DNA of 64,000 nucleotides, from contig JAKLKF010000008.1 in assembly GCA_023150805.1 (NCBI GenBank), positions 17,469-81,468 on the forward strand, given 5' to 3'. The position numbers and the translations under genes are program-made. Source of the stretch: Myxococcota bacterium (GTDB taxonomy: Bacteria > Myxococcota_A > UBA796 > UBA2385). Positions 20,108 to 43,033 of the stretch are shown in pieces (positions within the stretch are counted from its first letter, which is position 1; every line of letters starts with the position of its first letter). The notes beneath the pieces are model-generated. The model was given only the letters and a program-made list of their open reading frames with translations. It had not been told where the DNA came from and did no database searches.

Positions 20108-21981
20108 ATGCCCATCCTCTTGATCATCCAGGTGCTCCTCGAACCCGACGGGGGCTGGCGTGTCGGCGCCGGCCTTGCTGGCTCGCGGCCGAGCTGGGGC
20201 CGCCTCGACCCCGACCAGGTGCGCGACCTGCTGGAGCAGGTCGAGGCCAGCCTGCGCGCCGACGACATGTCGCCCCTGCTGCTGGCGGGCGACGACGCGG
20301 CGGTGGCGGCGGGGGAGGAGCGCGCCGGCCGCCTGCTGGCCGCGGTGCTGGCCTCGTCTCCGGGCGTGGCGCGGGCGGTGTCCGAGCAGCGCGGCGCCGC
20401 GCGGGCGACGGGTCGCCCCCTGGTGATCGTGCTCGACGCCCACGACGAGACGATCCGTGCGCTGCCCTGGGAGTGCCTGGCCATCGACGTGGACGAAGGC
20501 CCCCTGGAGAGCGGGGGGGCGGCCTGGTGGTCCGGCTGGGCGCGGGCCTGGGGCCGCCGCCGTCGGGGGCGCTGCAGCCGGTCCTGTGGACCACCGACGC
20601 CGAGGACCCGGTGGTGCGGGAGCTGGCCGCAGACGTGGAGATGGCCTGTCGCAGCGCGGGCCTGCCGGCGCCGGTGCGTCCGGGGCCGGACGCCGCGGAG
20701 CGCCGGGGGCCGGGCCTGGTGTTCCTGGTGGGCCACGGCGAGTCGGTGGACCAGCACCTGCGCCTGTTGGGGCAGGACGGCGCGCTGGCGCCCGGGACGG
20801 TCGCGCACGCCCTGCAGCCCTGGCTGGCCGGGGCGGCGCTGGTGGTGCTGCTGGTCTGCGAGGGGGGGCTGCGCTCCATGCGCGCGCGCAGCGGCCTGGT
20901 CGACAGCATCCTGGCGGCGGGGGCGCCGGCGGTGCTGGCCAGCGACGCGCGCCTGGCGGCCCAGGCCGGGACCATGCTGGTGCGGGAGCTGGTGCCCGCG
21001 CTGGCGCGAGGGGACTCGCTGGCGCTGGCCGTGACGGCGGGGCGGCGGGCGGTCCGCGGCCTGGCCTGGCCCTTCCCCGACAGCCGCTGGTGGCGGCTGG
21101 GCTTGACCATCGGGCACGCCGAGGCGGTCGGCTGGGCGGGGCCCCGGCATCGCCTCCCCCACGGCTGGTCCCCGGGGCCCGAGGCGGGGCGGCTGCTCAC
21201 GGCGGCCATGGAGCACGCCGCCCGGCGGCGCCAGCGCTGGCTGGGGGTCGAGCACCTGGTCCTGGCCCTGCGCGACGGCCCCTCGCCCGTGCGGCGCGAG
21301 CTGCGCCTCGCCGCGCGCCACTGGAGCGCGATGCTGGCCGACTACCTCGACCAGTTCGAGCTGGTGGGCAACGTCCCGATGCGGCTGAGCCCGCGGCTGG
21401 TGCGGGTGCGGGACGCGCTGCCCGCGGGCTTCCAGGTCGACGACCTGGTCGAGGCGGTCCTGCAGGCGCTGCCGCCCGCCCTGCTGCGCCGGCTGGGGCT
21501 GCCGCTGGGGCGCGACGACGGCAGCACCTACCGCTTCGACTTCGACCCCTCGGACACCAGGCTGCCGTCGGTACCCCTGGGCGACGACCTCCTGGCGACC
21601 GAGGACGAGCGGGACCGCACCGACGACGGGACCGGGGAGCCCGGCGGGGAGGGGGATCCGTGCTGCGGCCTGGAGGTCCTGGGGGGGCCCGAGGACGGTC
21701 GCCGGATCGTCCCTGCGCCCGGGGAGGAGCTGGGGCGCTCGACCAGCTCGGCCCAGGCGGACCACGCGCTCTACCTGGACGCCGGGGGCATCGACCCCTT
21801 CCTGTCGCGGCGCCACCTGCGCTTCCTGGGCCCGTCGCGCGTGGAGCTGCTGCGCCCGGGTTACCGCCTGGTGTCCCAGCCCGGCCTGCGGCCGCGCGGC
21901 GAGATCGAGCTCCGCGTCGGCGAGATCCTGGGCTTGACCCCGCTGACCTGGCTGGTGGCGCTCGGCCCGTCGGAGCCGTAG
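20108..21981 (+). CDS. CHAT (caspase-like) protease with Clp_N-like repeat and C-terminal FHA-like domain; reading frame broken at a G7 run (20513-20519)
   Basis: N-terminal 135 aa are in the frame of track ORF 19637..21034 (MPILLIIQVLLEPDGG...ALPWECLAIDVDEGPLESGG). The rest is in the frame of ORF 20473..21981 (GLVVRLGAGLG...). CHAT dyad motifs LVFLVGHGES and LVVLLVCEGG. Clp_N-like RWLGVEHLVLALRDG. FHA-like GRS...LSRRHLRF. One extra G would restore a single 625-codon frame. Confidence 0.75.
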
Positions 21982-22053: not shown

Positions 22054-23682
22054 GTGCAGACGGCGGCGTACGTACAACGGCGAGGCGCCTGGCAGGTGAG
22101 CTCCCTGCGGGCGGCGGCGGCGTTGCGCGCGGGGGACCCGGCCGCGGCCCGCGACCTGGTCCAGACCGGCTGGCGGTTCTCGCCGGCGCAGGCCGAGGTC
22201 GTCTGCCAGCAGCTCCTCCAGACGCCGCCGGCCCCCGACGCCAAGGCGTGGGCGCTGGCGATGGAGGAGGGGCCGGGCCCGGACCTGCCCACCGCCCTGG
22301 ACTGGCGCGAGGAGGCCTGGCGCCGCGCCTGGCCCGACGGCGCGGTCGGCGATCCGCTGGCCTGGGGCCTGTGCGAGCTGGCCGCCCACGGGTGGCTGTT
22401 GGACCAGGTGGAGCGGCAGCCCTGGGAGGCCGTGAGCGCGCCGCCCGATCCGGTGGAGGATCGGGAGGTGGGTCGGCTCTGGTCGGCGTGGGCGGGCAGT
22501 CGCGCCTGGGAGATCCGGGACGAGTGGGAGCGGCGCTTCCTCAAGCCGGCCCTGCGGGCCTTCTCCGCCGTGCTGCGGGGCCGTCGGCTGCCCGAGGACG
22601 TGCGGCGACGCGCGATCCAGGACGCCCGCGAGGGCTTCTTCTACGTCCTGATCGGCGGCGCCGACCCGGGCGCGGGCTGGCGCGAGCTGGCGGTGCGGCT
22701 GCTGGAGGCCTCCGGCGGAGACCCGGTGGACGCGCTGGCCGGGGCGCTGCCGGCGGCGTCCTGGGAGCGGGTGGCGCGGTGCGCGGTCACGCGCGGCCAC
22801 GGGCGTGACACGGCCGCGATCGTCTGGGGCGGGGGCGTGGCCTGGCAGGTGCAGGCGCGAGACCTGGAGCGGCGGGGACAGGCGCGGCCCCAGGCCCTGG
22901 GCGACCTGCTGGACCTGCACCTGGCCCTGCGCCTGGTCGACTGCTGGACCTCGCCGGCGTTCACGGCGCCCGAGCGGGGGCTGTCGGTGATGGCCCACAA
23001 CCGGGGCCGCGCCCGCAGCCGCCTGCGCGCGGTGCTGCGGGAGGCGCCTGCCGAGCACCTGCTGGCGCAGATCCTCGCCCGCCCCGGGCTGGCGGCGCGG
23101 ACCCGCTCGACCGTGGCCCGCTTCGCGCGCGACTGGGCCTGGCAGCAGGTGCAGCACGGCTTCGCCTTCTACGACGCGCGCACGGTCGACCCCGCCTGCG
23201 TGCTTCCCGAGGGCTCCCCCCCGCGCCTGACCGAGGACGAGGCCGCCGCCCTGCGCGCCTGGCTGGTCCGGGTGGTGGTCAAGGCGCGCCTCCCCCACCT
23301 GCTGCAGTGGGTGCACGGCGGAGACGACCTGGACAAGCGCGACTCGACCTGGGGACGGCTGCTGGCCGACGACTGCCCGGCGTCGCTGCGCAGCTACCCC
23401 GGGGCCGCGCGGGGCGAGGGGCTCGCGCGCATGCGGGCCGAGCTGTCCGAGCACCTGCCGGCCCAGCTCCGCATGCTGCTGCCGACCCTGCAGGCCGTGG
23501 CGGCGCTGGACACGCGCGCCCGCGACCTGGAGGCGTCCTTCATCGCGGCCGTCACGCCGATCTGGCACGCGGATGTGGAGCTTCCTCGGGTACGATACCG
23601 GTCCTACGTGGAGTCCACGCGCGAGGCCATGGCGGCGGTGGAGCGCGCGGCGAACGCCCCGTCGGACCCGGAGGACGGATGA
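22054..23682 (+). CDS. Hypothetical protein, family X copy 1 (542 aa); paralog of 40538..42235
   Basis: GTG start preceded by TAGCTT-N6. Protein-like W/A/R/L-rich helical sequence. Clear similarity to the minus-strand gene at 40538 (ARFARDWAWQQVQHGFAFYD vs ARYAWDWAWREARVGFGFDP; ALAGALPAASWERVARC vs ALAGALGPAGWEQVAAC). Confidence 0.65.
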   Translation: MQTAAYVQRRGAWQVSSLRAAAALRAGDPAAARDLVQTGWRFSPAQAEVVCQQLLQTPPAPDAKAWALAMEEGPGPDLPTALDWREEAWRRAWPDGAVGDPLAWGLCELAAHGWLLDQVERQPWEAVSAPPDPVEDREVGRLWSAWAGSRAWEIRDEWERRFLKPALRAFSAVLRGRRLPEDVRRRAIQDAREGFFYVLIGGADPGAGWRELAVRLLEASGGDPVDALAGALPAASWERVARCAVTRGHGRDTAAIVWGGGVAWQVQARDLERRGQARPQALGDLLDLHLALRLVDCWTSPAFTAPERGLSVMAHNRGRARSRLRAVLREAPAEHLLAQILARPGLAARTRSTVARFARDWAWQQVQHGFAFYDARTVDPACVLPEGSPPRLTEDEAAALRAWLVRVVVKARLPHLLQWVHGGDDLDKRDSTWGRLLADDCPASLRSYPGAARGEGLARMRAELSEHLPAQLRMLLPTLQAVAALDTRARDLEASFIAAVTPIWHADVELPRVRYRSYVESTREAMAAVERAANAPSDPEDG

Positions 23683-23737
23683 GCCCGCACCTCGCCGCAC
23701 CCACCGCGAGCGGCCTTCGGACCCAGGGGAGGCGCCC

Positions 23738-24316
23738 GTGCGTCCTTCCCTGACGGACCTGCTGCTGCTGGAGGCGGGGGCCCTGGACCCCGCGCAGGCC
23801 GCCCGGACCCGCGCCTGGCTGGTCGCCCACCCCGAAGACGCCGTGGAGCTGGTGGACGACGAGCCCATCGCGTCCGCCTGGCGGCTGCCCCCGCCGGGGA
23901 TGGGCCTGGGGCTGCGCGCCGGGATGCCGGGGGTGCTCGCCGGAGAGGGGCTGCGCCCGGGGGACCGCGTGGACCTGCGGCTGGAGGCGCGCCCCGACGC
24001 CGATCGCCTGGGCGTGGTGCTGCTGCGCCAGGCGCAGGGCCCCGGCGCCGGGCCGTGGGCGGTGGAGGCGCCGCGGTCGCAGGCCGAGCTGGTGCCGCTG
24101 TCCCGCTACCCCCGCGAGGCGGATGGCCGGCACAGCCTGTCCGTGCGCGTGCAGCCGCCGGCGGGACGCCAGCGGCTGGGCCTGGCCCTGGTCCCCCTCG
24201 ACCTGCCGATCGACTGGACCGCGCCGGGCGAGGCGCGCTGGAGCGCCCTGCTGGAGGCGGTGCGGCGGGGCGAGGTCGCGGTCGGCACCACCGACCTGAC
24301 CGTCGGCGGAGGCTGA
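23738..24316 (+). CDS. Soluble RskA-like N-terminus / DUF4384-like protein, tandem copy 1 (192 aa)
   Basis: GTG at 23738 with GGGGAGG 6 nt upstream (internal to track ORF 23573..24316). N-terminus SLTDLLLLEAGALDPAQAARTRAWLVAHPEDA resembles anti-sigma-K (RskA) N-termini. Core LRPGDRVDLRLEARPDADRLGVVLL resembles DUF4384. No TM segment. Confidence 0.6.
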   Translation: MRPSLTDLLLLEAGALDPAQAARTRAWLVAHPEDAVELVDDEPIASAWRLPPPGMGLGLRAGMPGVLAGEGLRPGDRVDLRLEARPDADRLGVVLLRQAQGPGAGPWAVEAPRSQAELVPLSRYPREADGRHSLSVRVQPPAGRQRLGLALVPLDLPIDWTAPGEARWSALLEAVRRGEVAVGTTDLTVGGG

Positions 24317-24346
24317 CCGTCGGCGGAGGCTGACCGCCGGCGGAAG
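24296..24346. repeat. 3 x 17-bp tandem repeat (CTGACCGTCGGCGGAGG; third copy has 2 mismatches) spanning the stop codon of gene 23738..24316
   Basis: Copies at 24296-24312, 24313-24329 and 24330-24346. The gene stop TGA lies at 24314-24316 inside copy 2. Confidence 0.9.
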
Positions 24347-24442
24347 CGGGACCGCCGCGTGCCTCCCTCGCGGGCGGGTTCGGGGACGGCGAGGTGCAAG
24401 CCCCCAGGGCCGAGGGGCTGCCCCGCGCCCCCCGGAGGTCCC

Positions 24443-25030
24443 ATGCCCGCCTTCGCCGACGCCACCCTGCTGCTCTTCGCCGCCGACGCCCTCGATCCGG
24501 GGCCGGCCGCGCTCCTGCGCGCCGAGCTGGCGCGGGACCCCGCGCTCCAGGCGCACCTGGACGCCCTGGCCCGCGACCTGGACGAGCTGCCCCCCTCGCC
24601 GGGCTTCCGGGTGCCGCCTCCGGGGCTCGGCCTGCAGGTCGGCCTGCAACAGTCGGCGGTCCTCGGGCCCGCGCTCCTGCGCGTGGGCGACCGCTTCGAG
24701 GTCTGCCTGCCTCCGCGCCCCTCCCCCGAGCGCGAGGGCGCGGTGGTGCTGCGCGACGTCGGCGCGGGCTGGCAGGTCGTGGCGCCGGTCCAGCCCGACC
24801 ACGCGGTGGCGCTCTCGCGCCTGCCCCGGGGATCGGACGGGTGCCACCAGGTGAACCTGCTCGCCCGTCCGCCGCAGGGGCGCCAGCGCTGGGCGGTCGC
24901 GCTGGTCCCGATGGACCAGCTCCCCGGGGCGCCGCCGCCGGTGCCCTCGGTCGAGCCGTGGCACAGCCTGCGGCAGGGCCTGGCCGCGGGCACGGTGCCG
25001 GTCGGCGTGGTCGAGATCGAGCTCTGTTGA
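24443..25030 (+). CDS. Soluble RskA-like N-terminus / DUF4384-like protein, tandem copy 2 (195 aa)
   Basis: Internal ATG of track ORF 24359..25030, with CGGAGG upstream. MPAFADATLLLFAADALDPGPAALLRAELARDPALQAHLDAL. Core LLRVGDRFEVCLPPRPSPEREGAVVL. Collinear similarity to the preceding gene (GRQRLGLALVPLD vs GRQRWAVALVPMD). Confidence 0.65.
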   Translation: MPAFADATLLLFAADALDPGPAALLRAELARDPALQAHLDALARDLDELPPSPGFRVPPPGLGLQVGLQQSAVLGPALLRVGDRFEVCLPPRPSPEREGAVVLRDVGAGWQVVAPVQPDHAVALSRLPRGSDGCHQVNLLARPPQGRQRWAVALVPMDQLPGAPPPVPSVEPWHSLRQGLAAGTVPVGVVEIELC

Positions 25031-25046: not shown

Positions 25047-27862
<2,816 letters not shown>

Positions 27863-27866
<4 letters not shown>

Positions 27867-35489: not shown

Positions 35490-37069
35490 CAGAAGCGGTA
35501 CCCCGCGGCCAGCAGGAGCTGGTGCATCGTGAACAGGGGCAGGTCCTCCTCCAGGGCGACCGGCACCAGGTGCTCGCGCCAGGACAGCTCGGCCTCCAGG
35601 CGGCGGTGGCGGACGCCGACCCAGGCGTCCATGCCCGGTGACAGCGTGGACAGTCGCTGGGCTGGCACCTGCTGGGTCGGGTCGAAGCTTCGGCCCAGCC
35701 ACAGCGCGTCGGCGCGCAGGCCGATGCCCGCCTGCACCGTGCGGGGCCGCGTCGCGTAGCCGGCGGCCGCGCCCAGGCCCGCCCCGGCCAGCCCGGCCGC
35801 CACCGTGCTGGTGTCGGTGATCGCCAGCGACCCGGCGCCGACCCCGCCCCACAGCTCGGCCGAGGCCCAGCGCCCGTCGCGCCAGTACAGTCGCCAGGTG
35901 GCGCTGGCCACCGGGATGTCGGGCAGCCAGGCGGCGCGCACCCGGGCCCCGTCGGCGCCCAGCACGCCCAGGCCCAGCCGCAGCGCCGTGTCCGGCAGCT
36001 CCGCCTGGCGGATCCGGGCCTCGATGGCGCCCTTGGCCTCGTCGTCCTCGTACTCCATCGCCGAGAAGGCCAGGCCCGCCGCGTCGATGGACTGTCCATC
36101 GCGCACGGTGACCTCGGCCACCTTCAGGTGGGTCGGCAGGCGCCGTCGCACCTGGTAGCGGCCCGGCGGCAGGTGCACGCGGCGGTCGGTCGGGGACTCG
36201 GCCACTTCGGCGACGTAGGCCCGGCGGTCCAGGTCGAAGATGGCGAAGGCGCCGTCCAGGTCGGGGCCGAAGGCCAGGCTGCCGCGGGACGGGTCCAGCT
36301 CGGCCAGGACCAGGTCGCCCTCGCCGGACAGGGCCCAGTCGAAGGTGGGGTGCTGGGTGCCGATGCGGGTGGCCGAGGTCCGCAGCACGGTCTCGTGGTA
36401 GACGAAGGCGTAGGCCTCCGACAGGGTGACGGCCCGGTCGCCGTCGGCGTCGGCGGCGCCGTACAGGCCGCTGGCCAGGTAGTGCGTGAAGTACGATCCG
36501 CCGATCTCGTCGGACTCCTGGCTGGCCTCGTCGCCCGTCGAGCTGGTGATGAAGACGGTGCCGCTGGTGCCCAGGCGCTCGGACAGCTTCACCTCGAAGG
36601 CCGGCACCCGGCTGCCCCCCTTGCTGCGGGTCGCCGCGCCGCTGTGACAGGCGTCGAGCAGGGCCAGCCGCACGTCGGCGCCGGTCTCGGCCAGCAGGCG
36701 CTCCAGCTCGTCGTAGTCCAGGCGGCTCTCGCCCATGAGCAGGGACTGTTCATCGCCGTGGCCCGACCAGTAGAACAGGAAGACCACCTCGTCGCCCTCG
36801 GCGTGGGCCCGGGCCACGGCGCGCCGGGCCTGGGCGAAGGCGTCCTGCACGCGGTCGGCCGTCGCCTCCCGCACCAGGTCGACGTCGGCCTCGTCGTAGC
36901 CGCCGACGTCGACCAGCACGTCGCGCAGCTTCCCGGCGTCGTCCTCGGCGAAGTACAGCGAGCGGTAGACCATCCCGGCGTCGTTGTTGGCGGCCACCAG
37001 GGCGAAGCGGCGCACCTCGGCCGCCGCCGGGCCGGCGAGGGAGAGCGCGAGCAGGGCCGGGCCGATCAC
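35489..37069 (-). CDS. Caspase-family (peptidase C14) protein with signal peptide and C-terminal beta-barrel-like domain
   Basis: GTG start overlapping the anti-sigma stop (GTGA). Signal IGPALLALSLAGPAAA. C14 dyad motifs VVFLFYWSGHGD and RLALLDACHSGA. The C-terminal ~170 aa are Gly/aromatic strand-rich and end AAGYRF, an OMP-like terminal Phe. Confidence 0.85.
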   Translation of the reverse strand: MIGPALLALSLAGPAAAEVRRFALVAANNDAGMVYRSLYFAEDDAGKLRDVLVDVGGYDEADVDLVREATADRVQDAFAQARRAVARAHAEGDEVVFLFYWSGHGDEQSLLMGESRLDYDELERLLAETGADVRLALLDACHSGAATRSKGGSRVPAFEVKLSERLGTSGTVFITSSTGDEASQESDEIGGSYFTHYLASGLYGAADADGDRAVTLSEAYAFVYHETVLRTSATRIGTQHPTFDWALSGEGDLVLAELDPSRGSLAFGPDLDGAFAIFDLDRRAYVAEVAESPTDRRVHLPPGRYQVRRRLPTHLKVAEVTVRDGQSIDAAGLAFSAMEYEDDEAKGAIEARIRQAELPDTALRLGLGVLGADGARVRAAWLPDIPVASATWRLYWRDGRWASAELWGGVGAGSLAITDTSTVAAGLAGAGLGAAAGYATRPRTVQAGIGLRADALWLGRSFDPTQQVPAQRLSTLSPGMDAWVGVRHRRLEAELSWREHLVPVALEEDLPLFTMHQLLLAAGYRF

Positions 37070-37782
37070 GGCGCCTTGCCGACGGAGAGGACGGCGACGC
37101 CGGGGTCGGTCTGCGCGAGGGAGGCCACGGCAGCCTGCCCGCCCCGGGCCTGGGCGGCCCGCACCATTGCGACGGCCTCGGCGGTGCTGGCCGGCCCGAA
37201 GACCGCGACGAACAGCTCGGGCCCCGGCGCGTCGTCCAGGGCCACGGCGTCCACCAGCAGGCCGCGCTGGTCGGGGTCGACCGGCACCGGGGGCTGCTCG
37301 ACCCGCTCGGGGTACAGCAGGCTGACCCGGCCCCGGCCGTCGACCGAGAGCACGACCACCTCCTCGTGGCCGTCGGCCTGGACGGCGAAGCGCACCCGGT
37401 CGCCCTGCGCCAGCACCTCGCCCTCCTCCACCTGCACCGCCTGGCCCCCGCGCTGCACGTACAGGTCCAGGTCGACCCGGCCCTTGGCCCGGTTGGCGCC
37501 GGGCTCGGGCAGCACGGCGACCAGGGCCAGTGCGGCGGCCAGCAGGGGGATCAGCAGCAGGGCCGGTCGCCAGGAGCGCCGGGGCGGGCGCGCGGCGGAC
37601 GGGGGCGGCCGGATCCGGTCCAGGTCCAGCGGGGGGAGGTCGGCGCGGGCCGCCTCCAGCTCGCGGGCGTGGCGGTGCAGGGCCAGGTGGTCGGCCAGGC
37701 CCAGGTCGGCCTCGCCCAGGAGCTGCCGCTCCAGGTCCAGCCGGGACGGGCGGTCGCCCTGGTTCAGGTCGAGGCGGATCAT
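37066..37782 (-). CDS. Anti-sigma factor, single-pass membrane protein with periplasmic DUF4384-like domain
   Basis: Internal ATG (37782) of track ORF 37066..38253; ATGA overlap with the sigma gene stop. N-terminus LDLERQLLGEADLGLADHLALHRHARELEA. TM WRPALLLIPLLAAALALVAVL. DUF4384-like GEVLAQGDRVRFAVQADGHEEVVVLSVDGRGRVSLLYP. Confidence 0.75.
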   Translation of the reverse strand: MIRLDLNQGDRPSRLDLERQLLGEADLGLADHLALHRHARELEAARADLPPLDLDRIRPPPSAARPPRRSWRPALLLIPLLAAALALVAVLPEPGANRAKGRVDLDLYVQRGGQAVQVEEGEVLAQGDRVRFAVQADGHEEVVVLSVDGRGRVSLLYPERVEQPPVPVDPDQRGLLVDAVALDDAPGPELFVAVFGPASTAEAVAMVRAAQARGGQAAVASLAQTDPGVAVLSVGKAP

Positions 37783-39986: not shown

Positions 39987-40484
39987 TCACCCGATCTCGA
40001 CGCGGACCCCCGCCTCGGCGCTCGCCAGCAGCGTGTCGTCGCCCTCGCCCAGGACCTCGACCACGACGCGGTGCAGCCCCTCGACGGCGTCCAGGACCAG
40101 GTCGAGGGCGTAGCGGCCCTCATTGTCGCACCGGAGCTGGCCCAGGCGCAGGTGGCCCTCCGCGGCCGGGGAGAGGACGGTGCAGCCGGCCCGGGTGTGG
40201 ACCTCGACCCGCAGGCGGGCGGCCGGGGGCAGGTCGGCGGGCAGGAGCACCGGCAGCCGGTCGCCGGGGCGCCAGGGGCCGGCGTCCAGGTGCAGGGCGC
40301 CCAGCGAGATCGCGCCGCGGTGGGCGGCCAGCCAGGGGCCGGTGGAGGCGGGCGCGGCCAGCGCGCGGCGGGCCTGGGCCTGGCGCGCGGCCAGGCCGGG
40401 GCGGGCGGCGGCGCGGCGCAGCGCGAGGGCGTCGCCGGGCTCCAGGGCGAGGGCGGCGTCGGCGTAGGGCAGGCGGGTCCGCAT
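39987..40484 (-). CDS. Small RskA/DUF4384-like protein, third family member (165 aa)
   Basis: Internal ATG (40484) of track ORF 39987..42272, with GAGGAG upstream. ALALEPGDALALRRAAARPGLAARQAQA and WRPGDRLPVLLPADLPPAARLRVEV resemble the genes at 23738 and 24443. It lies directly downstream of family X copy 2. Confidence 0.55.
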   Translation of the reverse strand: MRTRLPYADAALALEPGDALALRRAAARPGLAARQAQARRALAAPASTGPWLAAHRGAISLGALHLDAGPWRPGDRLPVLLPADLPPAARLRVEVHTRAGCTVLSPAAEGHLRLGQLRCDNEGRYALDLVLDAVEGLHRVVVEVLGEGDDTLLASAEAGVRVEIG

Positions 40485-40537: not shown

Positions 40538-42235
40538 TCACGCGTCGGCCTCCTCGTCCCGGGCACCGCTGGCCGGCGGCGAGGGGGCCCCGGCGGCGAA
40601 GTCGGCCAGGCGCTCGACGAAGGCGTCGACGTGCTTGCGCGGCAGGGGGATCGCGCTGTGGTCCCAGTCGGGCAGCAGGGCGGCGTGCAGCAGGGCCTTG
40701 CGCTGGCGGCCCGGGGGCACCAGGGAGACCCGCGCGCAGACCGCCCGCAGGGCCTCGGTGTGGTCGTCCAGGCCCCCGTCCGCCAGGTGCTCGCGCAGGC
40801 GGGTGTAGCCCCGGCTGCGCAGGGCCAGGGTGCCCGGATCGGCCAGGTGGTCGGGGGCCTCGGCCAGGTAGCGGTAGAAGCGCGCCGACAGGCCGCGGCC
40901 GCCGCCGGTGAGCCAGGCCTCCAGGTCGGGCCAGCAGCCGCGCCCCAGCAGGTTGAGCAGCAGGGTCGTCACGGCCGGCGCCGCGGTGTCGGGCAAGGGC
41001 GGCAGGGGCGGCGCGGCGGGCTCGGGCAGCTCGCAGGCCGGCGGCCGCATGCGGTCGGGGTCGAAGCCGAAGCCGACGCGGGCCTCGCGCCAGGCCCAGT
41101 CCCAGGCGTAGCGGGCCAGGGCGGCGGCGGTGCGGGCGCGCAGGCCGGGCAGGGCCAGGACGGCGTCGCGCAGGCGCTCGGGCTCGGCGCGGGCGACCAC
41201 GCGCAGGCGGCCGCGGATGCGGGACCGGTTGGCACGCACGACGGCCCAGCCGGGCAGCCCCAGCTCGTGCTCGACCGCGCGGCCCTCGCAGAGCGAGGCC
41301 GACACCCGCAGGGCGACGACCAGCTCGACGCCCTCGGCCAGCAGGTCGGGGGACAGCCGCGCCGGGTCGGGATCGCCGTCGCCCAGCAGCAGGCGCCAGG
41401 CCTCGGTCCAGGCGCTGCGCCCGCGGACGCAGGCCGCGACCTGCTCCCAGCCCGCCGGCCCCAGCGCCCCGGCCAGCGCGGCGACCGGCTCGCCCCGCGT
41501 CTCCACCAGGCGGGCCGCCAGGTCGACGTGGGCGCCCCAGGACAGCGTCTCCAGCGCCTCCAGCGCCTGCTCGGCCCGCAGGTCGGCCACCGAGGGGGGC
41601 AGGCCCAGCGACAGGGCCACGCCGCGGAAGGACCGCCGCACCTCGGGGCCGAAGGCCTTGCGCACGCGGTCGGCCACGCCGGGATCGAAGCCGCGGTCGA
41701 ACATCGCCGCCCACAGTCGGCCCGTCGCCTCGTCCCGCGGGTCCGCCGGGAAGGAGGCGGCCGACCAGGCCCGCCGCTCGCGCAGGGCCACCTCCTCGCC
41801 GAGCCGGGCCAGCAGGTACAGCCCCGCGGCGTCCAGGGCCGGCCCCGGCACCGGCTCGGCGGCCGGGTCGGCGGCGGCGCGGCGGGCGGCCTCCAGCGCC
41901 AGTCGGTCCCACTCCGCCTCGGGCAGGGGGGCCGGGGGCGGGTCCGGCGGGTCGCCGAAGGCCCACAGGGCCAGCGCCCGGGTCTGCGAGCTGTCGGCCA
42001 CCCGCAGGCCCTCGACCACCGCGGTCACCACCCCGGGGCGGCGGGCCCAGGTCCAGCTCTCCAGCAGGCTGTCGGCCGCCTTGGGGCGGCGGATCGCCCG
42101 GCGCGCCAGGCCGGCCCGCAGGTCGCGCAGGGTCAGCCAGCGGGCCAGGTCCAGGTCGGGGACCGAGGGGCCCGGAGAGGACGGGTCGCCGTCCGGCGGG
42201 TCGGCAGGAGGGGGCGGGCGAGGGGTCGCGGTCAC
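40538..42235 (-). CDS. Hypothetical protein, family X copy 2 (about 565 aa); paralog of 22054..23682
   Basis: C-terminal part of track ORF 40538..43450; further upstream that ORF is antisense to real plus-strand genes. The proposed GTG start at 42235 is uncertain. Collinear similarity to 22054..23682. Confidence 0.6.
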   Translation of the reverse strand: MTATPRPPPPADPPDGDPSSPGPSVPDLDLARWLTLRDLRAGLARRAIRRPKAADSLLESWTWARRPGVVTAVVEGLRVADSSQTRALALWAFGDPPDPPPAPLPEAEWDRLALEAARRAAADPAAEPVPGPALDAAGLYLLARLGEEVALRERRAWSAASFPADPRDEATGRLWAAMFDRGFDPGVADRVRKAFGPEVRRSFRGVALSLGLPPSVADLRAEQALEALETLSWGAHVDLAARLVETRGEPVAALAGALGPAGWEQVAACVRGRSAWTEAWRLLLGDGDPDPARLSPDLLAEGVELVVALRVSASLCEGRAVEHELGLPGWAVVRANRSRIRGRLRVVARAEPERLRDAVLALPGLRARTAAALARYAWDWAWREARVGFGFDPDRMRPPACELPEPAAPPLPPLPDTAAPAVTTLLLNLLGRGCWPDLEAWLTGGGRGLSARFYRYLAEAPDHLADPGTLALRSRGYTRLREHLADGGLDDHTEALRAVCARVSLVPPGRQRKALLHAALLPDWDHSAIPLPRKHVDAFVERLADFAAGAPSPPASGARDEEADA

Positions 42236-42292: not shown

Positions 42293-43033
42293 GTGCCCGA
42301 GATCCCCTCGCACTTCGACCACTACATGACCCAGATGGCCGACTGGCCGGCCTCCTTCTTCCTCGACCTGGGCCTGGCCGCGCACGCGCCGCTGCCGCGC
42401 CTGACCCGGCGCCTGCACGTCACCGCCTCGCTCAAGCGGCCGCGCGCCGACGGCCTGCGCGACCGGCTGGAGGCCAACGAGCTGCACGCGATGGAGGACG
42501 AGGTCACGCGCCAGGTCGAGCGCCTGGGGGGCCGCTACGTCGGCCGCATCACCTGGCAGGGGCGCAGCGACGCGATCTTCTACCTGCCCGGCGACGTCGA
42601 CGACCTCTCGGCGGTGGAGGAGGCGACGGGCGACTACGACGCCACGCTGCGGCTGGAGGAGGACCCCGAGTGGCGCTTCTTCCGCGAGTTCCTCATGCCC
42701 TCGCCCTACCAGCACCAGACCATGCTGAACCGGCGGGTGCTGGCGGTGCTCTCGCAGCAGGGCGACGACCTGGACTGTCCGCGGCGGGTCGATCACACCT
42801 TCCTGTGTCACACCCCGACCCCGCTGCACCAGCTCAGCGGCGCCCTGGCCGAGCGGGGCTTCTCCTGCGAGACGCTGGGGCGCTCGGAGAACGGGGAGCA
42901 CGTGCTGCACTGCTGGCGGGAGGAGGCGCCCGCCTTCCCGCGCATGGACGAGGTCGTGGCCGAGATCTTCCAGATCATGCCGTCGGTGGTGTCCTATGAC
43001 GGCTGGGGCTGCGGCCTGGTCCCGCGGGCCTGA
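42293..43033 (+). CDS. DUF695 + RraB (ribonuclease E inhibitor-like) two-domain protein
   Basis: GTG with CGGAGG upstream (internal to track ORF 40631..43033). DUF695-like GRYVGRITWQGRSDAIFYLPGD. RraB-like C-terminus ending SYDGWGCGLV (compare E. coli RraB EYDGWGT). Confidence 0.7.
   Translation: MPEIPSHFDHYMTQMADWPASFFLDLGLAAHAPLPRLTRRLHVTASLKRPRADGLRDRLEANELHAMEDEVTRQVERLGGRYVGRITWQGRSDAIFYLPGDVDDLSAVEEATGDYDATLRLEEDPEWRFFREFLMPSPYQHQTMLNRRVLAVLSQQGDDLDCPRRVDHTFLCHTPTPLHQLSGALAERGFSCETLGRSENGEHVLHCWREEAPAFPRMDEVVAEIFQIMPSVVSYDGWGCGLVPRA

What the first reader, a model, noticed from the sequence alone, without database searches (positions are those of the whole stretch)
22054..25030. Recurrent module, copy 1: family-X protein (about 550 aa) followed by soluble RskA-N-terminus / DUF4384-like small proteins
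Seen in sequence: 22054-23682 (X1) is followed by two tandem paralogs, 23738-24316 and 24443-25030. The same arrangement recurs inverted at 42235-40538 (X2) plus 40484-39987.

X1 and X2 align collinearly. Examples: LARPGLAARTRSTVARFARDWAWQQVQHGFAFYDARTVDPACVLPE vs LALPGLRARTAAALARYAWDWAWREARVGFGFDPDRMRPPACELPE, and ALAGALPAASWERVARC vs ALAGALGPAGWEQVAAC.

The small proteins share an N-terminal A-L-[DE]-P-G...R...A[RH][PD] helix (AGALDPAQAARTRAWLVAHPEDA / ADALDPGPAALLRAELARDPALQA / ALALEPGDALALRRAAARPGLAA). They also share a PGDR-type beta core like that of the membrane anti-sigma factor at 37066-37782.

Inference: this is a conserved two-component module of unknown function. The anti-sigma-like proteins lack both a TM segment and an adjacent sigma factor, so X may be their binding partner.
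Basis: partly seen in the sequence, partly recalled or inferred. Interest (0 to 1): 0.6.

Follow-up and report, generated by a model that had tools for sequence, protein, structure and literature searches.

The report
Orphan protein paired with sigma-less anti-sigma-like protein
Two copies of a conserved gene pair from uncultured Myxococcota encode a 540-residue protein of unknown fold followed by a small soluble protein with an anti-sigma-type head but no sigma factor nearby; the pair usually sits beside a caspase-like protease and a Ser/Thr kinase, so it looks like an undescribed protease-controlled switch.

Summary
X1 (22054-23682) and X2 (42235-40538) are homologs (32% identity, E 5e-21). 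S1 and S2 are tandem paralogs (39%, E 2e-29). S3 (40484-39987) is a divergent member, detectable only with a family profile (37 bits). In all 26 modules examined (window plus about 24 non-redundant public loci), X is immediately followed by S. Stop and start codons overlap in 14 of 18 cases.

X has no Pfam, NCBIfam, PADLOC, PHROG or PDB match. Its confident all-helical model (pLDDT 89.6) has no Foldseek neighbour. S has an N-terminal three-helix domain; 10 of 28 members hit ChrR-like anti-sigma models, all below cut-off. A flexible linker with a conserved W-R-x-P-P-P-G motif and an Ig-like sandwich follow. The proposed DUF4384/RskA link and the similarity to the anti-sigma at 37066-37782 are not supported.

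The module is larger than reported. A CHAT protease with an intact His/Cys dyad, fused to ClpC-N-like and FHA-like domains, lies next to X in 15 of 20 informative X1-type loci. In the window that gene is frameshifted. A Ser/Thr kinase follows S in 8 of 19. No sigma factor is linked to the X1-type modules.

Best reading, inferred: S holds X in the position a sigma factor normally occupies, and phosphorylation-gated CHAT cleavage releases it.

The parts
20108..21981 (+). CHAT caspase-like protease fused to a ClpC-N-like domain and a C-terminal FHA-like domain. In this window the gene is frameshifted in a G7 run at 20513-20519. The N-terminal part is read in frame 2 (20108 to about 20518) and the rest in frame 1 (about 20524 to 21981).
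   Evidence: Pfam CHAT 30.5 bits against a cut-off of 24. tblastn and HMM hits are split over two frames, and the G7 run is visible. His217 and Cys260 are invariant in 10 homologs. The family profile hits ClpC N-domains in the PDB at E 3.5e-5 and FHA domains (3po8, 2lc1, 1uht, 3oun) at about E 1e-3. A homolog lies next to X in 15 of 20 informative X1-type loci.
22054..23682 (+). X1, a 542-aa all-helical orphan protein (NCBI L6R53_03865, 'hypothetical protein').
   Evidence: One search found 20 clusters, all unnamed. One search found 192 cluster representatives at 50% identity. The AF2 model has pLDDT 89.6 and pTM 0.82. No Foldseek, PDB, Pfam, NCBIfam, PADLOC or PHROG match. The GTG start at 22054 is supported by the conserved N-termini of homologs.
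23738..24316 (+). S1, 192 aa: the extra, more diverged tandem copy of the small anti-sigma-domain protein.
   Evidence: 39% identical to S2. Only about 32-40% identical to S proteins of other loci, whereas S2 is 50-61% identical to those of its nearer relatives. It has 75-84% orthologs only in close relatives.
24443..25030 (+). S2, 195 aa: the ancestral-type small protein. It has three N-terminal helices (anti-sigma-domain-like), a flexible linker with F/W-R-x-P-P-P-G, an Ig-like beta sandwich, then a helix and a strand.
   Evidence: AF2 model pLDDT 86.2. Anti-sigma NCBIfam hits map to residues 9-70. Foldseek returns only generic Ig/ML-domain sandwiches such as NPC2 and Der p 2.
25047..27866 (+). 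Hanks-type Ser/Thr kinase, 939 aa, with a long helical C-terminal region that has no family match.
   Evidence: Pfam Pkinase 1.4e-32. HRDLKPANV and GTPRYVAPE motifs are readable. A kinase gene follows S in 8 of 19 informative loci; full-length orthologs are present in L006, L014 and L020.
40538..42235 (-). X2, about 565 aa, a paralog of X1. The start is uncertain by about 80 nt.
   Evidence: The X HMM scores 446 bits. Orthologs of 74-82% identity are each followed by an S3-type gene in L026 and L028, and L029 has the same arrangement with a 538-aa X-HMM hit.
39987..40484 (-). S3, 165 aa (NCBI L6R53_03935), a divergent S subfamily. It lacks the W-R-x-P-P-P-G motif and the C-terminal helix.
   Evidence: 36.9 bits to an S HMM built without it. 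The subfamily P0026-P0035 is 163-172 aa. Alignment.

Best explanation
X and S form a cognate cytoplasmic pair built like a sigma/anti-sigma pair, but without a sigma factor. S uses a zinc-less three-helix anti-sigma-type domain, followed by an Ig-like domain, to hold the orphan all-helical protein X. X occupies the gene position and coupling pattern that an ECF sigma factor normally has.

The pair is controlled by regulated proteolysis. The co-encoded CHAT caspase-like protease carries two putative phospho-residue reader domains, one ClpC-N-like and one FHA-like. After phosphorylation by the co-encoded Ser/Thr kinase, the protease is recruited to the complex and cuts it. The most plausible cut site is the conserved, flexible W-R|x-P-P-P-G linker of S; Arg at P1 is typical of several clan-CD proteases. 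Cleavage frees X.

Shown: homology, strict adjacency, domain content, conserved catalytic and phospho-binding residues, and the absence of a linked sigma factor.

Inferred: the X-S contact, the direction of control, the substrate, the cleavage site, the role of phosphorylation, and the output activity of X, which remains unknown.
For: - X is followed by S in 26 of 26 modules. Stop and start codons overlap in 14 of 18 measured cases.
- Cognate pairing is kept after duplication: X1-type with S-type and X2-type with S3-type. This holds in the window, in MAG GCA_013152105 (L005 and L029) and in metagenome Ga0100377 (L013 and L026).
- The S N-terminus hits anti-sigma models in 10 of 28 members, in N-to-N register. 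AF2 gives a three-helix head, a low-confidence linker carrying the conserved motif, and a beta sandwich.
- A CHAT homolog is adjacent in 15 of 20 informative X1-type loci and also lies near the X2-type module in L026. Its His/Cys dyad is invariant.
- The FHA-like GR and SR residues are invariant, and the profile hits PDB FHA domains at about E 1e-3. The ClpC-N-like domain hits at E 3.5e-5.
- A kinase follows S in 8 of 19 informative loci.
- No ECF sigma gene was found in the X1-type loci.
- There is precedent for CHAT proteases acting on anti-sigma-type proteins. Csx29 cleaves Csx30, which inhibits CASP-sigma (PMC10028731). DdvA is an anti-sigma fused to TPR-CHAT (PMC11506125).
Against: - No direct evidence of X-S binding or of cleavage; AF-Multimer could not be run.
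- All anti-sigma hits are far below the curated cut-offs, and the PDB profile search found no anti-sigma factor.
- One X1 sub-clade (L002, L011, L012, L018, L024) has no CHAT gene in the available flanks yet mostly keeps the W-R-x-P-P-P-G motif.
- The kinase is absent from more than half of the loci.
- In this window the CHAT gene is frameshifted.
- The X2-S3 module lacks the linker motif and has no adjacent CHAT gene here.
- The apparent CHAT-X fusion P0078 is probably a frameshift artefact.
- X gives no clue to any activity.
Confidence: 0.4

Rival explanations
1. S is a genuine soluble anti-sigma factor of the ChrR type for an ECF sigma factor encoded elsewhere. X is an accessory protein: a sensor, or an anti-anti-sigma that titrates S, in the way PhyR titrates NepR.
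For: Anti-sigma and ChrR profile hits at the S N-terminus. The two-domain soluble layout resembles ChrR (ChrR architecture from my own knowledge). An ECF sigma/anti-sigma operon lies 1.7 kb from S3 in the window, and the same arrangement is found in L028.
Against: No sigma gene lies within up to 8 kb of the X1-type modules. The nearby sigma at 38330-37779 already has its own overlapping TM anti-sigma. S lacks the zinc ligands. Strict, translationally coupled pairing is with X, not with a sigma factor.
Confidence: 0.22
2. X is the trans-acting helical scaffold or regulatory subunit of the CHAT protease, replacing the TPR or helical domain that is fused to CHAT in separase, craspase and DdvA. 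S is a securin-like pseudosubstrate inhibitor or the substrate.
For: The CHAT protein here has no TPR region. X is a large all-helical protein encoded immediately downstream. Known CHAT proteases carry large helical domains (PMC11506125).
Against: X shows no Foldseek similarity to separase or craspase chains in the PDB. X-S occurs without an adjacent CHAT gene in 5 X1-type loci and in the window's X2 module. The P0078 fusion is probably an artefact.
Confidence: 0.15
3. The cluster is a conflict or abortive-infection system. X is a toxic effector neutralised by the acidic small protein S and is unleashed when the CHAT protease is triggered.
For: Clan-CD proteases and STKs are common in defence systems, and the window's kinase hits the PADLOC kinase models PD-T4-6 and mad6. 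S is acidic on average (mean pI 5.9) and X more basic (mean pI 7.9).
Against: X, S and the CHAT protein have no PADLOC or PHROG hit. The neighbours are housekeeping genes in conserved synteny (LysR, RluA-type synthase, DUF695/RraB, TauE, thioesterase) rather than a defence island or mobile element. The kinase hits cover only the generic kinase domain.
Confidence: 0.12
4. The ORFs are chance open frames in very GC-rich DNA and the similarities are compositional.
For: Many long spurious ORFs overlap the region on other frames.
Against: There are 192 diverged homolog clusters with invariant residues. Both AF2 models are confident. Synteny is conserved.
Confidence: 0.01

Closest known systems
ChrR-type soluble anti-sigma factors (ChrR/RpoE of Rhodobacter; NCBIfam PRK13920, NF052375, TIGR02451)
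   Same: A small soluble two-domain protein with an N-terminal helical anti-sigma domain and a C-terminal all-beta domain. It is encoded directly after its partner gene, with overlapping stop/start codons. Sub-threshold profile hits occur in 10 of 28 S proteins.
   Different: No zinc ligands. The C-terminal domain is an Ig-like sandwich, not a cupin. The upstream partner is a 540-aa protein that is not sigma-like, and no sigma factor is linked.
Type III-E Craspase: Csx29 (TPR-CHAT) cleaving Csx30, which inhibits the ECF-like CASP-sigma (PMC10028731)
   Same: A CHAT caspase-like protease is encoded beside an anti-sigma-acting protein. The proposed logic, in which protease cleavage relieves sequestration, is the same.
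   Different: No Cas7-11 or CRISPR, no TPR on the CHAT protein, and no sigma factor. The trigger would be phosphorylation (FHA-like domain plus STK) rather than RNA. The S profile hits Csx30 only at E 0.035, with no structural support.
DdvA/DdvS of Myxococcus xanthus: an anti-sigma factor fused to a periplasmic TPR-CHAT (PMC11506125)
   Same: Same phylum. A three-helix anti-sigma domain is functionally coupled to a CHAT protease, with cleavage proposed in a flexible linker.
   Different: DdvA is a single transmembrane polypeptide with a zinc CHCC anti-sigma domain and a cognate ECF sigma. Here the parts are separate soluble proteins and an orphan protein X replaces the sigma.
CalpL-CalpT-CalpS (SAVED-Lon protease, anti-sigma, ECF-like sigma; bioRxiv 10.1101/2024.05.08.593097)
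   Same: A soluble tripartite arrangement of protease, anti-sigma-like protein and sequestered partner.
   Different: A Lon protease rather than CHAT, a cyclic-oligoadenylate trigger, and a true sigma-like partner.
The ECF sigma / TM anti-sigma / exported caspase operon in the same window (38330-35489, minus strand)
   Same: An anti-sigma protein co-transcribed with a clan-CD protease. The trio is conserved in L028.
   Different: It is a classical arrangement with a sigma factor, a TM helix and an exported Peptidase_C14. Its anti-sigma is not detectably related to S.

Membership tests
Class I anti-sigma factor (ASD; ChrR/RskA/ZAS type), tested on S | N-terminal helical anti-sigma domain recognisable by family profiles | tested here: inconclusive
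   10 of 28 S proteins hit PRK13920 (best E 1.4e-5), 8 hit NF052375 (best 3.3e-6) and 2 hit ChrR models. For S2, the one member whose coordinates were shown, the hits cover N-terminal residues 9-70. All are far below the curated cut-offs. AF2 gives three N-terminal helices. There were no Pfam zf-HC2 or RskA hits and no anti-sigma hit in the PDB profile search.
Class I anti-sigma factor (ASD; ChrR/RskA/ZAS type), tested on S | H-x3-C-x2-C zinc-binding motif (ZAS subgroup only) | tested here: not met
   No conserved His or Cys in the N-terminal 50 columns of the 19- and 28-member alignments. S1 has no Cys at all.
Class I anti-sigma factor (ASD; ChrR/RskA/ZAS type), tested on S | Cognate ECF sigma gene adjacent or co-transcribed | tested here: not met
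   The gene upstream is always X. X is not sigma-like: hhalign probability 0.1% and no PDB profile hit. No sigma domain appears in the annotated neighbours of L001, L002, L004 and L030. jackhmmer with two ECF sigma seeds found only the seeds themselves in the 30 loci and the window.
Class I anti-sigma factor (ASD; ChrR/RskA/ZAS type), tested on S | Binds the sigma2/sigma4 domains and inhibits transcription | not testable with these tools
   Needs binding or transcription assays.
RskA (mycothiol-system anti-sigma-K type) | TM helix and extracytoplasmic RskA C-terminal domain | tested here: not met
   The maximum 19-residue Kyte-Doolittle mean is at most 1.3 in S1-S3, against 2.7 for the true TM anti-sigma. 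No RskA Pfam hit.
DUF4384 (PF14326) | Match to the Pfam model | tested here: not met
   0 of 19 S proteins hit at E<=5. The anti-sigma at 37066-37782 itself reaches only E 0.004, below the cut-off. hhalign of the S profile against it gives probability 1.8%.
CHAT protease (PF12770, clan CD), tested on the gene upstream of X | Pfam match above the gathering score and a conserved His/Cys dyad | tested here: met
   30.5 bits (window) and 38.2 bits (L001) against a cut-off of 24. His217 and Cys260 are invariant in 10 homologs. The window copy is frameshifted.
FHA domain, tested on the C-terminus of the CHAT protein | FHA profile match and conserved phospho-Thr-binding Arg and Ser | tested here: inconclusive
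   The family profile hits the PDB FHA domains 3po8, 2lc1, 1uht and 3oun at E 0.001-0.006. G-R and S-R are invariant. The Pfam FHA model is not hit by any of 11 members.
Type III-E Craspase accessory module (Csx29/Csx30/Csx31/CASP-sigma) | Csx30 homology, a TPR-CHAT protease and an associated sigma factor or Cas7-11 | tested here: not met
   Csx30 is hit only at E 0.035 and is absent from the top 50 Foldseek matches listed. The CHAT protein has no TPR. No sigma factor is linked. No Cas genes appear among the annotated neighbours.
Known anti-phage defence systems (PADLOC-DB 2.0) | Match of the core proteins to a defence-system model | tested here: not met
   X1, X2, S1-S3 and the L001 CHAT protein have no hits. 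Only the generic kinase domain hits.

The most novel reading that the evidence does not exclude
The anti-sigma domain has been exapted to control something that is not a sigma factor. X would be a new class of effector with a previously unseen all-helical fold. It would be sequestered by an ASD protein and released by a caspase-like CHAT protease that reads Ser/Thr (and possibly Arg) phosphorylation through FHA-like and ClpC-N-like domains. That would be a bacterial kinase-to-phospho-reader-to-caspase-to-effector cascade, comparable in logic to separase/securin or Craspase/Csx30 but assembled from different parts.
Probability: 0.25. Interest if true: 0.8.

Novelty: new variant of a known kind. 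Interest (0 to 1): 0.6.

Why it matters
Anti-sigma domains are regarded as dedicated sigma-factor binders. Bacterial CHAT and caspase-like proteases have few known substrates (Csx30, PCaspase cascades). This module offers three things:

- a defined candidate substrate and partner set for a cytoplasmic CHAT protease whose trigger would be protein phosphorylation;
- an ASD protein whose conserved partner is not a sigma factor;
- a 190-cluster protein family with a confidently predicted fold that has no solved relative.

Each point can be tested directly with four recombinant proteins.

The limits are real. The family is confined to uncultured Myxococcota-like lineages, and the output function of X is unknown.

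Tried and rejected
- **X as a hidden sigma factor.** hhalign against the window's ECF sigma gives probability 0.1%. The PDB profile search gives no hit at E<=10. The two T. thermophilus sigma-A chains among the Foldseek hits are noise (E 6.5-7.9, TM about 0.1). Rejected.
- **S as a Csx30 relative.** The single profile hit has E 0.035 and Csx30 is absent from the top 50 Foldseek matches listed. Kept only as an analogy.
- **S beta domain as DUF4384, or as a relative of the neighbouring anti-sigma.** No support.
- **CHAT-X gene fusion P0078 as Rosetta-stone evidence.** The 120-residue linker is P/G/R low complexity, typical of out-of-frame high-GC translation, and the FHA domain is undetectable. 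P0087's N-terminus is unrelated to CHAT. Rejected as evidence.
- **Defence-system assignment.** No PADLOC or PHROG hits.
- **Conserved promoter upstream of the CHAT gene.** The alignment of five upstream regions is uninformative, and the sigma-70/terminator scan found nothing.


Full report
**Observation.** The window is very GC-rich DNA from a Myxococcota MAG; X1 is NCBI 'hypothetical protein L6R53_03865'.
- X1 (22054-23682, +) and X2 (42235-40538, -) align collinearly over 449 residues at 32% identity, E 5e-21.
- S1 (23738-24316) and S2 (24443-25030) are 39% identical over their whole length, E 2e-29.
- S3 (40484-39987) is not significantly similar to S1 or S2 by BLASTP. It scores 36.9 bits (E 3e-13) against an HMM built from 18 other family members without it.
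- An HMM scan of the six-frame translation finds exactly two X, three S and one CHAT locus in the 64 kb.
- The membrane anti-sigma at 37066-37782 does not match the S profile: 1.7 bits and hhalign probability 1.8%.

**Conservation.**
- A word-indexed search of 5.8 billion proteins found 20 X clusters, all unnamed and without Pfam domains.
- An exhaustive HMMER search of 1.84 billion representatives found 192 clusters at E<=1e-3, of which 171 are at E<=1e-30.
- Only five of 185,579 species-representative genomes were recovered by the pattern scan. They are labelled Myxococcota, Oligoflexia or Deltaproteobacteria MAGs, apart from one labelled uncultured Enterobacterales, which I take to be a mislabel. 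Sixteen metagenome loci were added.
- Across the window and about 24 non-redundant loci, X is followed directly by an S gene in 26 of 26 modules for which downstream DNA exists.
- The X stop and S start overlap, mostly by 4 nt, in 14 of 18 measured cases.
- The two subtypes keep cognate pairing, X1-type with S-type (190-208 aa) and X2-type with S3-type (163-172 aa). This holds in the window, in MAG GCA_013152105 (L005 and L029) and in metagenome Ga0100377 (L013 and L026).
- The tandem S1/S2 duplication appears only in close relatives. S2 is the ancestral-type copy: it is 50-61% identical to the S proteins of its nearer relatives, against about 32-40% for S1.

**What X is.** With 21 aligned sequences, AlphaFold2 gives an all-helical model of 25 helices with mean pLDDT 89.6 and pTM 0.82.
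- Foldseek finds nothing in the PDB (best E 2.2, TM about 0.1) or in BFVD.
- The family profile hits no PDB sequence at E<=10.
- No Pfam family is hit by more than one of the 21 members at E<=5.
- NCBIfam, PADLOC and PHROGs give nothing.
- hhalign against the window's ECF sigma gives probability 0.1%.
- X has no TM segment.
- It has many invariant residues. These include an Arg-rich helix (N316, R319, R323, R325), R349-T350, and Cys382 in a long low-confidence loop.

**What S is.** The AF2 model (28 sequences, pLDDT 86.2) has three parts:
- three N-terminal helices (6-13, 19-31, 33-47);
- a lower-confidence linker carrying the conserved W/F-R-[LIV]-P-P-P-G motif;
- a beta sandwich (77-156), a helix and a final strand.

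Foldseek returns only generic Ig/ML-type sandwiches such as NPC2 and Der p 2 (E about 1e-3, TM 0.4-0.56).

The N-terminal region gives repeated sub-threshold hits to anti-sigma models. 10 of 28 members hit PRK13920 'putative anti-sigmaE protein' (best 1.4e-5). 8 hit NF052375 'anti-sigma factor' (best 3.3e-6). 2 hit ChrR models. For S2 these map residues 9-70 onto profile positions 4-65. S1 also touches the FecR-type DUF4880 at E 0.02.

The zinc ligands of ZAS domains are absent. No DUF4384 or RskA hit occurs. The best label is 'zinc-less anti-sigma-type head plus Ig-like domain'. ChrR-type soluble anti-sigma factors are the closest architecture; the ChrR comparison rests on my own knowledge.

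**The module is larger than reported.** Immediately upstream of X1 lies a homolog of a 560-620 aa protein family with these features:
- a Pfam CHAT domain (window 30.5 bits, L001 38.2 bits, cut-off 24);
- invariant His217 and Cys260;
- a middle domain matching ClpC N-terminal domains in the PDB (E 3.5e-5 and dozens of further hits);
- a C-terminal domain whose profile hits four FHA structures (3po8, 2lc1, 1uht, 3oun; E 0.001-0.006). It keeps invariant G-R and S-R, although Pfam FHA is not hit.

In the window this gene is split by a frameshift in a G7 run at 20513-20519.

A homolog lies directly upstream on the same strand in 13 loci and divergently upstream in L025 and L030. That makes 15 of 20 informative X1-type loci. 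In L026 a homolog lies one gene away from an X2-S3 module. One X1 sub-clade (L002, L011, L012, L018, L024) has none in the available flanks.

A Hanks-type kinase follows S in 8 of 19 informative loci. These include the window (25047-27866; Pkinase 1.4e-32, catalytic motifs intact).

No ECF sigma gene is linked to the X1-type modules. The sigma at 38330-37779 near X2-S3 has its own overlapping TM anti-sigma and an exported caspase, and the same trio is conserved in L028.

**Mechanism (inference).** Three facts point to a stoichiometric X-S complex in which S restrains X:
- the gene order, with a large partner followed by an ASD protein and overlapping stop/start codons, is the arrangement typical of ECF sigma/anti-sigma pairs (my own knowledge);
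- the pairing is invariant;
- cognate pairs co-diversify.

The neighbouring CHAT protease has an intact dyad and two putative phospho-residue readers, and a kinase often sits in the same cluster. This suggests phosphorylation-dependent recruitment followed by cleavage. The conserved motif in the flexible S linker is the most attractive cut site; Arg at P1 suits several clan-CD proteases (my own knowledge).

Published systems show the same logic with true sigma factors. Csx29 (TPR-CHAT) cleaves Csx30, which inhibits CASP-sigma (PMC10028731). DdvA is a myxobacterial anti-sigma fused to TPR-CHAT and is proposed to cut its own linker (PMC11506125). What X does once freed is unknown.

**Rivals.**
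- S is a real anti-sigma for an unlinked sigma factor, and X is a sensor or anti-anti-sigma.
- X is the missing helical scaffold of the CHAT protease, and S is a securin-like inhibitor.
- The cluster is a toxin/immunity-type conflict system. This is weakened by the lack of PADLOC or PHROG hits and by housekeeping synteny with DUF695/RraB, LysR, TauE, thioesterase and pseudouridine synthase genes.
- The chance-ORF reading is excluded.

**Novelty.** The library search returned no paper describing this family or cluster. All members are annotated hypothetical. I rate it a new variant of a known kind, namely protease-controlled anti-sigma-type switches. A minority reading would make it categorically new: an ASD controlling a non-sigma effector of novel fold through a kinase-to-phospho-reader-to-caspase cascade. 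Interest is moderate to high for specialists in sigma/anti-sigma and bacterial caspases. It is limited by the narrow, uncultured host range and by the lack of any functional handle on X.

Noticed in passing
window 20108-21981 (frameshift at 20513-20519): The CHAT/ClpC-N-like/FHA-like protease gene upstream of X1 is split over two reading frames at a run of seven G. Homologs elsewhere are intact (560-620 aa). This could be an assembly error or a real, possibly phase-variable, inactivation.
   Followed up: partly
window 38330-35489 (minus strand); L028 2104-4963: An operon of an ECF sigma (38330-37779), a TM anti-sigma (37782-37066; weak DUF4384 hit, E 0.004) and an exported Peptidase_C14 caspase (37069-35489; NCBIfam caspase_w_EACC1, 3.9e-19), joined by 4-nt overlaps. 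It is conserved in L028. This is a second pairing of an anti-sigma with a clan-CD protease in the same window, and it suggests the caspase acts as the site-1 protease.
   Followed up: partly
window 42326-43033 (+); L029 1-644 (-): A DUF695 + RraB-domain gene is divergently transcribed from X2. The same divergent arrangement occurs next to the X2-type gene in L029, so the X2-S3 module sits in conserved chromosomal synteny.
   Followed up: partly
window 20071-18797 (minus strand): A secreted-type M23 peptidase with a PPC (pre-peptidase C-terminal) domain. It has a Gly/Ser/Pro-rich spacer and a C-terminal hydrophobic segment ending in RRRRP, which resembles a Myxococcota C-terminal sorting signal.
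   Followed up: no
protein P0078 (1100 aa, metagenome): An apparent CHAT-X fusion. CHAT covers residues 10-445 and X covers 572-1099. The joining 120 residues are P/G/R low complexity and the FHA domain is undetectable, so this is most likely a frameshifted or mis-called gene pair rather than a true fusion.
   Followed up: yes
window 22054 vs 22096: The NCBI protein for X1 is 528 aa, 14 codons shorter than the ORF from the GTG at 22054. Homolog N-termini (M-x-T-A-A-Y-L...) align to the longer form, so the deposited start is probably too far downstream.
   Followed up: partly
S-family linker, e.g. S2 residues 55-62 (around window 24605-24628): A conserved W/F-R-[LIV]-P-P-P-G motif lies in a low-pLDDT linker between the helical head and the beta sandwich. 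It is absent from the whole S3 subfamily, which instead has conserved G-P-W-L and L-H-L-D-A-G-P-W motifs.
   Followed up: partly
X family loop, X1 residues 368-393 (around window 23155-23232): The longest low-confidence loop of the X model contains a nearly invariant D-P-x-C-x-L-P-E motif; Cys382 is invariant. It could be a docking, cleavage or metal/redox site.
   Followed up: no
L030 8797-12132; window 25047-27866: The kinases that follow S are not all the same type. L030 has a 1111-aa Pkinase with a P-loop (GAGGMGKS), faint AAA_22 and TPR hits, so it is STAND-like. The window's 939-aa kinase has no P-loop and a C-terminal 590 aa with no family match.
   Followed up: partly
S profile vs PDB 8eey_E: The S family profile gives a weak hit (E 0.035, 16.9 bits) to Csx30, the substrate of the CRISPR-associated CHAT protease. 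Foldseek does not support it. It is probably chance, but it fits the theme of a CHAT protease paired with an anti-sigma-like protein.
   Followed up: yes
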